Positions 405 through 1,056 of a stretch of DNA of 15,427 bases are shown here, in pieces (positions within the stretch are counted from its first letter, which is position 1; each line of letters opens with the position of its first letter). The DNA is from Candidatus Heimdallarchaeota archaeon. Its GTDB lineage: Archaea; Asgardarchaeota; Heimdallarchaeia; JABLTI01. Both the position numbers and the translations under genes were made by a program. The stretch is taken from assembly GCA_030614005.1 (NCBI GenBank), contig JAUWKS010000070.1:1-15427 (forward strand), read 5' to 3'. A model generated the notes under the pieces. The model saw only the letters and a program-made list of their open reading frames with translations, ran no database searches and was not told the DNA's origin.

Positions 405-770
405 TTGTACAATATGATCCCGAAAGCGATGTTAAAGAAACTGTATGTTCAGGGCAGCTTAACTCAAAAAGGAGAAGAATATTCCTTTCAATTACTGAAC
501 AATTTGTACCCCGGCACTGTTAAAGAAGTTGAATATCTTAAAATCGATGGTCAAGAATTGGATTTGAATACGATTACCATTTTTGTTAAAGAACATGAGA
601 TAGCTGTAGCAAATATTTCTAAGGAGAATCCCTTCAAATTGACAAAAGGGGATACTTTTACGTTTAAAGTAAAGGGTTCATTATCTGTAGGAACACATAC
701 GTTAAGTTTTAGTTTTAAAACAATTGAAGCTGGAAAAATGGCTTTTGATGTAGAAGATAAGCTAGAATAA
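405..770 (+). CDS. Small hypothetical protein, probably beta-rich; likely start ATG at 414
   Basis: 121-aa ORF with alternating hydrophobic beta-strand patterns, followed by T-tracts at 778-798. Function unknown. Confidence 0.75.
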   Translation: MYNMIPKAMLKKLYVQGSLTQKGEEYSFQLLNNLYPGTVKEVEYLKIDGQELDLNTITIFVKEHEIAVANISKENPFKLTKGDTFTFKVKGSLSVGTHTLSFSFKTIEAGKMAFDVEDKLE

Positions 771-826
771 GCTAATCTTTTATTTTTTAATTTTTTTTCT
801 AAAATGTATTGGTTTTGAGATAATTG

Positions 827-839
827 AAATAAGAAAATA
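827..839 (-). terminator. Putative T-rich terminator of the 5S precursor
   Basis: TATTTTCTTATTT immediately follows the 3' arm of the processing stem. Confidence 0.45.
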
Positions 840-841
840 GT

Positions 842-998
842 CGCCAAAACTCACCATTTCCGGGATCGGACGGGTCCGGGTGTTGCCCTCCAGCTTTGAC
901 CGCGTCGCAACGCAGCTTTACGATTTTCCCGAACGATCGCTCAGATCAGTAATCATCATAACGTATAGAGGCTTAACTTCCAGTGATGAGTTTTTGCG
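842..998 (-). other. Precursor processing stem with a bulge-helix-bulge-like motif flanking the permuted 5S
   Basis: CGCAAAAACTCATCA (998-984) pairs with TGGTGAGTTTTGGCG (856-842), with one mismatch and one G-U. Central helix CTGG (983-980)/CCGG (863-860). Three-nt bulges AAG (979-977) and AAA (859-857). Confidence 0.85.
858..977 (-). rRNA. rrf: 5S rRNA, circularly permuted gene (3' half 977-907 precedes 5' half 906-858)
   Basis: Minus strand reads GTTAAGCCTCTATACGTTATGATGATTACTGATCTGAGCGATCGTTCGGGAAAATCGTAAAGCTGCGTTGC then GACGCGGTCAAAGCTGGAGGGCAACACCCGGACCCGTCCGATCCCGGAA. Swapping the halves gives a 120-nt 5S in which helices I-V can all be drawn by hand. Confidence 0.93.
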
Positions 999-1022: not shown

Positions 1023-1030
1023 TTTTTAAA
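1023..1030 (-). promoter_or_regulatory. Putative TATA box (TTTAAAAA) of the 5S precursor
   Basis: Lies about 25 nt upstream of the start of the processing stem (998), with a purine-rich BRE-like sequence upstream. Confidence 0.55.
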
Positions 1031-1056
1031 GTTTGCCATCTTTCTTTTTGTTTTCC

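What the first reader, a model, noticed from the sequence alone, without database searches (positions are those of the whole stretch)
858..977. Circularly permuted 5S rRNA gene in an archaeal chromosome
Seen: on the minus strand the 5S 3' half (977-907) comes before the 5' half (906-858). Reordered, the sequence is GACGCGGUCAAAGCUGGAGGGCAACACCCGGACCCGUCCGAUCCCGGAA|GUUAAGCCUCUAUACGUUAUGAUGAUUACUGAUCUGAGCGAUCGUUCGGGAAAAUCGUAAAGCUGCGUUGC (120 nt). Helix I is 905-900/915-910, helix II 892-887/971-966, helix III 879-876/863-860, helix V 961-955/924-918, and helix IV ends in a GCGA loop. The break falls inside the conserved helix III/loop B region. Established: permuted tRNA genes (Cyanidioschyzon, Thermofilum), a permuted SRP RNA gene (Thermoproteus) and permuted organellar 5S RNAs are known. 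I know of no permuted chromosomal archaeal 5S gene but could not search the literature. Inference: such genes would be missed or called partial by standard rRNA finders.
Basis: partly seen in the sequence, partly recalled or inferred. Interest (0 to 1): 0.95.

Follow-up and report, generated by a model that had tools for sequence, protein, structure and literature searches.

The report
Permuted 5S rRNA gene, circularised RNA
This Heimdall-group Asgard archaeon encodes its only 5S ribosomal RNA back to front between tRNA-splicing signals, and public RNA data show the two ends joined exactly as predicted into a 120-nt ring, which explains why 5S genes seemed to be missing from the closest archaeal relatives of eukaryotes.

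Summary
On the minus strand, 977-858 holds a complete 5S rRNA in swapped order: 3' part, UGCG cap closing helix I, then 5' part. Rfam sees only two sub-threshold pieces. A profile of colinear Asgard 5S gives one full-length hit on the reordered or doubled sequence and two swapped partial hits on the native one.

Its cut sites are exactly 978|977 and 858|857.

In four metatranscriptomes from four studies, contigs join 977 back to 858 as closed 120-nt cycles with no flanks.

The genome has no colinear 5S, one RtcB gene and two EndA-domain genes.

The layout holds in 56 distinct Heimdallarchaeia sequences with strong covariation, and in 21 of 27 sampled Asgard families.

I found no paper reporting this. 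Wu et al. 2022 could not predict a 5S gene in closed Heimdallarchaeum genomes. This scan has noted the same layout before on other DNA (87 notes, at least 68 genomes), so the RNA joint appears to be the new evidence here.

Whether the ring itself is the ribosomal form is inferred, not shown.

The parts
1025..1037 (-). Promoter-like element GGCAAAC-TTTAAA (BRE/TATA type), 48-60 nt upstream of the mature 5' nucleotide. It predicts a leader of about 23-26 nt.
   Evidence: Sequence. The same motif sits at the same distance in 8 of 9 other species of the genus while the surrounding sequence diverges. Its function is inferred.
984..998 (-). Leader strand of the outer processing helix: 994-984 pairs with 846-856, and 998-996 with 842-844.
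   Evidence: Read by eye and in the MFE fold. In family f1 and in f3 (Hodarchaeota-labelled MAGs) a contiguous outer helix of 5-11 bp is kept with compensatory changes.
980..983 (-). Leader strand (CUGG) of the central 4-bp helix of the bulge-helix-bulge motif. It pairs with 863-860.
   Evidence: The helix covaries across families: CUGG/CCGG, CCGG/CCGG, CUGG/CCAG, CAGG/CCUG, CCGC/GCGG, CGUG/CACG.
977..979 (-). Leader 3-nt bulge AAG. The predicted cut lies between 978 and 977.
   Evidence: Motif geometry. The RNA joint begins at 977, with 4 ambiguous letters.
858..977 (-). Mature 5S rRNA sequence, 120 nt, in permuted order.
   Evidence: 111.5 bits full length with the permuted model R1, though this sequence was in the training set. 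The reordered form scores 72.5 bits against a colinear Asgard 5S HMM. RNA contigs cover exactly this stretch.
910..977 (-). 3' part of 5S: 3' strands of helix III-proximal and helix II, helices V and IV with the GCGA loop, and the 3' strand of helix I.
906..909 (-). UGCG (UNCG-type) tetraloop that closes helix I where a normal 5S has its two ends.
   Evidence: 31 of 53 distinct homologues have UNCG here and 40 of 53 have a 4-nt loop.
858..905 (-). 5' part of 5S: 5' strand of helix I, loop A, 5' strand of helix II, and helix III with loop C.
860..863 (-). CCGG: the 3' strand of helix III in the mature RNA and the trailer-side strand of the central helix of the motif in the precursor. The two pairings are alternatives.
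857..859 (-). Trailer 3-nt bulge AAA. The predicted cut lies between 858 and 857.
   Evidence: The RNA joint ends at 858.
842..856 (-). Trailer strand of the outer processing helix.
834..849 (-). T runs (849-846, 837-834) that could act as archaeal oligo-T terminators.
   Evidence: Sequence only. Inferred.

Best explanation
This is the organism's working 5S rRNA gene, written in circularly permuted order. A short transcript starts about 25 nt upstream of the mature sequence. Its leader and trailer pair into a long stem that ends in a canonical bulge-helix-bulge motif.

The tRNA-splicing endonuclease cuts in both 3-nt bulges, at 978|977 and 858|857. RtcB then joins the new ends. This restores the conserved ...CGGAA-GUUAAG... 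sequence of the loop next to helix III.

The ordinary 5S ends in helix I are sealed in the gene by a UGCG tetraloop, so the product is a covalently closed 120-nt RNA with the full 5S fold.

Shown: the permuted order, the fold, the motif, the enzyme genes, and the joint in RNA.

Inferred: which enzymes act, and that the ring, rather than a re-opened form, is what sits in the ribosome (my odds for that last step are about 0.6).
For: (1) 5S identity. Two partial RF00001 hits lie in swapped order. An HMM built from 11 colinear Asgard 5S genes (RF00001 77-85 bits) gives one full-length hit on the reordered sequence (72.5 bits) and one across the joint of the doubled sequence (72.7 bits). It gives two partial hits on the native DNA (31.4 and 28.7 bits).

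(2) Fold. 94.7% of cells are paired and 27 of 37 pairs have double changes. Helix I across the cap and helix III are 100% paired.

(3) Motif. A 4-bp helix with two 3-nt bulges is found in all 54 sequences with full flanks but one, the insertion-bearing L020/L146, where it appears once the match is realigned. In a subset of the Hodarchaeota-labelled sequences the helix has 3 bp plus A.C. The central helix covaries. The window's outer helix has 11+3 bp.

(4) RNA. In four metatranscriptome runs of four studies a contig joins 977 to 858 ('goes back 120'). Three of these are 150-nt records, that is a 120-nt cycle plus 30 letters of overlap; the fourth (X20) is an 86-nt contig across the joint. All have 0 mismatches and no flank cover. 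Depth is 295 in one run and 2 in another. 12 RNA runs hold at least 0.8 of the core's words, but RNA runs hold only 0.34-0.37 of a 301-nt stretch that includes the flanks.

(5) Only copy. No colinear 5S in the genome. One hit of the permuted model.

(6) Enzymes. Two EndA-domain genes and one RtcB gene.

(7) Conservation. 59 archaeal loci (56 distinct sequences) from independent assemblies, including closed Ca. Heimdallarchaeum genomes. Full-length hits of the permuted model occur in 21 of 27 Asgard families sampled.
Against: Infernal could not be run on the reordered sequence, so the full-length test rests on a sequence profile and on pair counts.

The RNA evidence comes from assembled contigs, not raw reads. 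It cannot show RNA ends, strand or stoichiometry, so a linear form re-opened at the cap cannot be excluded. Contig clean-up may also have removed rare precursor tips.

The central helix of the motif uses the same CCGG as helix III, so the precursor must fold differently from the product. This is normal for such motifs, but it was not tested.

No inner helix beyond the second bulge is evident, so the motif is of the relaxed kind.

No ribosome data.
Confidence: 0.9

Rival explanations
1. The circle is only an intermediate. After ligation the UGCG cap is cut open, as in permuted tRNAs of Cyanidioschyzon, and the ribosome carries a linear 5S with conventional helix I ends.
For: Precedent: circular pre-16S/23S and circular permuted pre-tRNAs are re-opened (PMC7758197 and PMC12918454 background; tRNA case from my own knowledge). 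Contigs cannot show RNA ends.
Against: The cap is only 3-5 nt, and in 31 of 53 sequences it is an extra-stable UNCG tetraloop on a 7-bp helix that is 100% paired. There is no spacer or conserved cut signal. The RNA contigs are complete cycles even at depth 2, so cap-spanning words are about as common as joint-spanning ones. Mature circular SRP RNA (PMC4731332) and circular 23S in ribosomes (PMC12918454) show that rings can be end products.
Confidence: 0.28
2. The transcript is cut at the motif but not ligated, so the ribosome uses a linear permuted 5S with ends in loop B.
For: Engineered permuted 5S with linked native ends works in E. coli (from my own knowledge; not checked here).
Against: Contigs in four RNA runs of four studies carry the 977-to-858 joint. 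The genome encodes RtcB.
Confidence: 0.04
3. The locus is an assembly chimera or a dead relic, and a normal 5S lies in the unassembled 10% of the genome.
For: The genome is 90% complete in 126 contigs, and rRNA genes are often unassembled.
Against: The order is the same in 56 distinct sequences. Two closed Heimdallarchaeum genomes have nothing else that is 5S-like. There is strong purifying selection with covariation and high RNA depth. None of 41 genomes of the class has a true colinear hit; the single 38.4-bit hit is itself a permuted gene.
Confidence: 0.01

Closest known systems
Permuted, circularised SRP RNA of Thermoproteus tenax / T. uzoniensis (Plagens et al. 2015, PMC4731332)
   Same: A universal structured RNA whose gene seemed to be missing. 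It has permuted gene order, a short leader (23 nt there) behind a TATA box, and a leader/trailer bulge-helix-bulge motif cut by the splicing endonuclease. RNA-seq shows the ends ligated, restoring a functional loop, and the mature RNA is a circle.
   Different: A different RNA (5S rRNA, a ribosome component). That case is confined to two species; this one runs through most of a phylum. Endonuclease cleavage and protein binding were shown there and not here.
Circularly permuted tRNA genes (Cyanidioschyzon merolae; Thermofilum pendens)
   Same: 3' half before 5' half, a bulge-helix-bulge motif at the new ends, and a circular RNA after ligation.
   Different: The tRNA circles carry an intervening sequence at the acceptor ends and are re-opened by RNase P/Z-type processing. 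Here the old ends are bridged by a bare tetraloop.
Circular pre-16S/23S rRNA, permuted 23S of Pyrococcus, and circular 23S in archaeal ribosomes (PMC7758197, PMC12918454)
   Same: rRNA excised at a 3-4-3 bulge-helix-bulge motif in a processing stem and ligated into a ring.
   Different: Those genes are colinear, and any permutation arises at the RNA level. PMC12918454 states that circularisation involves 16S and 23S 'but not 5S rRNAs'. Here the gene itself is permuted, so ligation is obligatory to rebuild the molecule.
Permuted organellar 5S rRNAs (Valach et al. 2014, PMC4267664)
   Same: 5S rRNA genes with permuted order that standard covariance models miss.
   Different: These are mitochondrial genes. 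No bulge-helix-bulge processing is known to me for them. I did not read the paper beyond its title and abstract.

Membership tests
5S rRNA (Rfam RF00001) | Three-way junction fold with helices I-V | tested here: met
   37 pairs, 94.7% of cells paired against 74.4% in shuffles, and 27 pairs with changes on both sides on 53 distinct sequences.
5S rRNA (Rfam RF00001) | Conserved sequence blocks (loop A, helix III/loop C, GUUAAG, GUACU...GGGAA) | tested here: met
   The reordered sequence scores 72.5 bits, E 8e-24, over positions 4-117 of an HMM of colinear Asgard 5S. Invariant columns are listed.
5S rRNA (Rfam RF00001) | Scores above the curated cut-off (38 bits) in genomic order | tested here: not met
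   15.6 and 14 bits. This failure is the expected consequence of the permutation.
5S rRNA (Rfam RF00001) | Full-length Infernal hit on the reordered sequence | not testable with these tools
The profile-HMM test stands in for it.
5S rRNA (Rfam RF00001) | Present in the large ribosomal subunit | not testable with these tools
   Needs ribosome purification or cryo-EM.
Permuted RNA genes matured by the tRNA-splicing machinery | 3' part encoded upstream of 5' part, with the old ends bridged | tested here: met
Permuted RNA genes matured by the tRNA-splicing machinery | Bulge-helix-bulge motif (4-bp helix, two 3-nt bulges) formed by leader and trailer at the new ends | tested here: met
   Window: CUGG/CCGG, bulges AAG and AAA, outer helix 11+3 bp. 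Conserved with covariation across families.
Permuted RNA genes matured by the tRNA-splicing machinery | Splicing endonuclease and RtcB ligase encoded in the genome | tested here: met
   PF01974 hits of 93.6 and 65 bits. PF01139 hit of 578.6 bits.
Permuted RNA genes matured by the tRNA-splicing machinery | RNA molecules carrying the ligated junction | tested here: met
   The joint 977->858 appears in contigs of four metatranscriptomes from four studies, three of them as closed 120-nt cycles.
Permuted RNA genes matured by the tRNA-splicing machinery | Cleavage of the motif by the endonuclease | not testable with these tools
   Needs an in vitro assay as in PMC4731332.

The most novel reading that the evidence does not exclude
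The 5S rRNA that sits in the ribosomes of Heimdallarchaeia, and of most other Asgard archaea, is a covalently closed 120-nt circle made obligatorily by the tRNA-splicing machinery. The permuted gene is an ancient rare genomic change that splits the Asgard phylum into permuted and colinear lineages. It therefore bears on which lineage gave rise to eukaryotes, whose 5S genes are colinear.
Probability: 0.55. Interest if true: 0.93.

Novelty: new variant of a known kind. Interest (0 to 1): 0.88.

Why it matters
5S rRNA is a universal ribosome component, and its gene is normally trivial to find. Wu et al. 2022 (PMC8813620) reported that no 5S gene could be predicted in closed Heimdallarchaeum genomes.

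This locus explains that gap. It gives a covariance model that finds the gene through most of the Asgard phylum. It also makes the tRNA-splicing endonuclease and RtcB essential for building ribosomes in these organisms.

A naturally circular 5S would be a new state for a ribosomal RNA that a 2026 study of archaeal rRNA circularisation explicitly set apart from circularisation.

In the families sampled, genes are either permuted or colinear, with no genome holding both. That makes the layout a candidate rare genomic change for rooting relationships among Asgard lineages and for the origin of the colinear eukaryotic 5S gene.

Practically, genome-quality standards that ask for a 5S gene under-rate such MAGs.

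Tried and rejected
(1) Infernal on the reordered or doubled sequence. The Rfam and model-search tools take only the window or fetched loci, so I used nhmmer with a profile of colinear Asgard 5S instead.

(2) The one 'over cut-off' colinear RF00001 hit in the class (G036, 38.4 bits). On reading the sequence it is a permuted gene with a UUCG cap and a CCGC/GCGG central helix, and the hit is a forced global alignment.

(3) The 31-34.5 bit 'colinear' hits in Heimdallarchaeaceae. These are alignments of the leader plus the 3' part, whereas the permuted model scores 115-131 bits at the same loci.

(4) The idea that the extra leader hairpin of Heimdallarchaeaceae is a relic of a duplicated 5' half, implying a tandem-duplication origin. 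Its similarity to the 5' half is not above shuffles in 16 of 17 sequences. Not supported.

(5) The 14 bacterial or Methanospirillum matches to my DNA pattern. None matches the permuted-5S profile, so they are chance.

(6) Single-sequence MFE folds, linear or circular, do not reproduce the 5S fold and have an unremarkable z-score. I relied on covariation instead.

(7) The weak sR38 C/D-box hit at 724-772(+) has E 1.9 and lies inside an ORF. I treated it as noise.

(8) The sigma-70 and intrinsic-terminator scan is not applicable to archaea and gave nothing useful.

Support for the DNA order therefore rests on independent assemblies.

Full report
**What is there**

On the minus strand the window reads: leader, then 977-910 (the 3' two-thirds of a 5S rRNA), then 909-906 (UGCG), then 905-858 (the 5' third), then trailer.

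Rfam at its curated threshold finds only a tRNA-Thr in the window. With a permissive threshold it finds two 5S pieces in swapped order. One is 858-881, matching model positions 27-51 (15.6 bits). The other is 911-~975, matching about 52-120 inside a forced global hit (14 bits). These two pieces are the only 5S-like matches in the whole genome, which has 3.6 Mb in 126 contigs and is 90% complete.

**Is it a 5S?**

I could not give Infernal a reordered sequence. Instead I built a profile HMM from 11 distinct colinear Asgard 5S genes, which score 77-85 bits with RF00001. I then ran it on three sequences:

| Sequence | Result |
|---|---|
| Reordered | One hit over profile positions 4-117, 72.5 bits, E 8e-24 |
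| Doubled core | One hit across the joint, 72.7 bits |
| Native DNA | Two partial hits in swapped order, 31.4 and 28.7 bits |

I also wrote the 5S fold onto an alignment of 53 distinct homologues (A1) and counted pairs.
- 94.7% of cells are paired, against 74.4% in shuffles and 32-46% when the partners are slid.
- 27 of 37 pairs have changes on both sides.
- Helix I, which is closed by the cap loop, and helix III are 100% paired.

**The flanks**

Leader 994-984 pairs with trailer 846-856 (11 bp). After one mismatch, 998-996 pairs with 842-844. Next comes a 4-bp helix, CUGG (983-980) with CCGG (863-860). It is flanked by two 3-nt bulges, AAG (979-977) and AAA (859-857). This is the 3-4-3 bulge-helix-bulge motif that the archaeal splicing endonuclease cuts at symmetrical positions in the bulges (PMC7758197; PMC4731332).

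From my own knowledge of the motif, the cut falls after the second bulge nucleotide. That releases exactly 977..858, and joining the ends gives ...CCCGGAA-GUUAAGCC..., the conserved 5S sequence at that place.

The trailer strand of the 4-bp helix is also the 3' strand of helix III. The precursor and the product therefore fold differently there, as happens with tRNA introns.

The genome has two EndA-domain genes and one RtcB gene.

In the genus, GGCAAAC-TTTAAA (1037-1025) is conserved in 8 of 9 other species, 48-60 nt upstream of the mature start. This predicts a leader of about 25 nt. T runs follow the trailer.

**RNA**

Six metatranscriptome runs held 0.34-0.37 of the words of a 301-nt stretch, which corresponds to the core alone. 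Twelve RNA runs, from nine studies by my count, hold at least 0.8 of the core's words.

I laid four RNA runs from four studies on 780-1060.
- Each has a contig with the joint '977 -> 858, goes back 120'.
- There are no mismatches, and cover is confined to 858-977. Cover to 981 reflects the 4 ambiguous letters GGAA.
- Three of the contigs are 150 nt long with identical first and last 30 letters. That is how a closed 120-nt cycle prints at word length 31.
- Depth ranges from 2 to 295.

So RNA with the predicted junction exists and far outweighs any precursor with flanks. DNA cannot give this joint.

The cycles are complete even at depth 2. Words that span the cap are therefore about as frequent as words that span the joint. 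This favours a ring as the main species. Contigs cannot show ends, so a fraction re-opened at the cap is not excluded.

**Who has it**

A DNA pattern for the permuted order hit 59 archaeal loci in the species-level genome collection. Most are labelled Heimdallarchaeota or Hodarchaeota, and a few carry other archaeal labels (Thor-, Hermod-, Bathy-, Promethearchaeota, 'archaeon'). They include the closed genomes of Ca. Heimdallarchaeum aukensis and endolithica, with two copies each. All 59 match the permuted profile at full or near-full length, while the 14 non-Asgard pattern hits do not. They yield 56 distinct sequences.

In 41 genomes of the window's class, no true colinear 5S was found. The single 38.4-bit hit is itself permuted, with a UUCG cap and a CCGC/GCGG central helix.

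I built a covariance model of the permuted gene (R1) and searched 151 genomes sampled across the phylum.

| Layout | Evidence | Families |
|---|---|---|
| Permuted | Full-length R1 hits, mostly 58-131 bits (40-64 in f13) | 21 of 27 families |
| Colinear | RF00001 above its cut-off | The other six (f10, f14, f16, f19, f26, f27) |

No genome has both layouts. The non-Heimdall hits that I read (families f7, f9, f11, f12, f21) have the same break point. They also have a motif with CGUG/CACG (CCGA/CCGG in f21) and outer helices of 10-15 bp. Family names are coded, so I cannot name these classes from my own data.

**The cap**

31 of 53 distinct sequences have a UNCG tetraloop where a normal 5S has its ends, 40 have a 4-nt loop, and the rest have 3 or 5 nt. 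There is no spacer and no conserved cut signal. This is the main sequence argument that the cap is a permanent structural feature.

**Comparison with what is known**

The closest case is the permuted, circular SRP RNA of Thermoproteus (PMC4731332). It shares the same logic, the same motif, a similar leader, and RNA-seq reads across the joint. Permuted tRNA genes and circular pre-16S/23S use the same enzymes.

What differs here is the molecule and the breadth. Ligation is obligatory to rebuild the molecule, and the layout is the rule in most of a phylum.

Six full-text searches found no report of a permuted or circular archaeal 5S. A 2026 paper says circularisation involves 16S and 23S 'but not 5S rRNAs'. 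Wu et al. 2022 state that 5S genes 'could not be predicted' in their closed Heimdallarchaeum genomes. The library lacks most subscription journals, so prior publication cannot be excluded.

**Earlier notes of this scan**

The same layout was noted before on other DNA (87 notes in at least 68 genomes), with circularisation predicted. A later check priced 'cut, joined, and the ring is the ribosome's 5S' at 35/100. My two word searches of those notes for RNA-joint evidence found none. appears to settle the 'cut and joined' half. The 'ring is the ribosomal form' half remains inferred.

**Verdict**

This is a real, expressed, permuted 5S rRNA gene matured by bulge-helix-bulge cleavage and ligation. 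It is a new variant of a known kind and of high interest.

Noticed in passing
L146:1501-1649 (= L020; G015, a genome of the family f3, whose other members are labelled Hodarchaeota): This permuted 5S carries an extra ~30 nt inside helix III/loop C, with a 6-bp hairpin and a repeated CAUUCCG. It looks like a small intron within the permuted gene. The R1 hit is 149 nt and scores 94.8 bits.
   Followed up: partly
Loci of family f13 (e.g. G126:C251:2550-2699, G067:C142:8305-8454): About five permuted-model hits in this family are 150 nt long and score only 41-47 bits. This suggests insertion-bearing variants, as an earlier scan note on a Lokiarchaeota-type genome also says.
   Followed up: no
L025, L005, L004, L009 and other family f2 (Heimdallarchaeaceae) loci, leader region: An 8-9 bp hairpin is inserted in the leader between an 11-12 bp outer helix and the central helix. 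The motif CAG-AAA occurs on both sides of it, so two alternative bulge-helix-bulge registers are possible. The hairpin keeps its pairing through compensatory changes.
   Followed up: partly
L011:1083-1141 (= L087:3223-3281): A second, partial copy of the 3' part (profile positions 1-59) lies about 350 nt upstream of the complete permuted gene.
   Followed up: no
G036 contigs C77, C90, C106, C132: Four identical permuted 5S copies (94.9 bits each) lie at the ends of small contigs. They are probably a multi-copy repeat that breaks the assembly.
   Followed up: no
window:8815-10781 (-): A fibrillarin and Nop5/56 gene pair (the C/D-box RNP core) lies 8 kb from the 5S gene. PAC2, Sir2, a NUBPL/Mrp-type ATPase and a DsrE-like gene are also in the window.
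   Followed up: no
window:405-770 (+): A 121-aa ORF matches only the N-terminal domain of HMG-CoA reductase (PF25653, 64 bits). It may be a stand-alone domain or a split gene.
   Followed up: no
Asgard phylum sample: Permuted and colinear 5S genes are mutually exclusive by family: 21 against 6 of the 27 families sampled. This could serve as a rare genomic change for Asgard phylogeny.
   Followed up: partly
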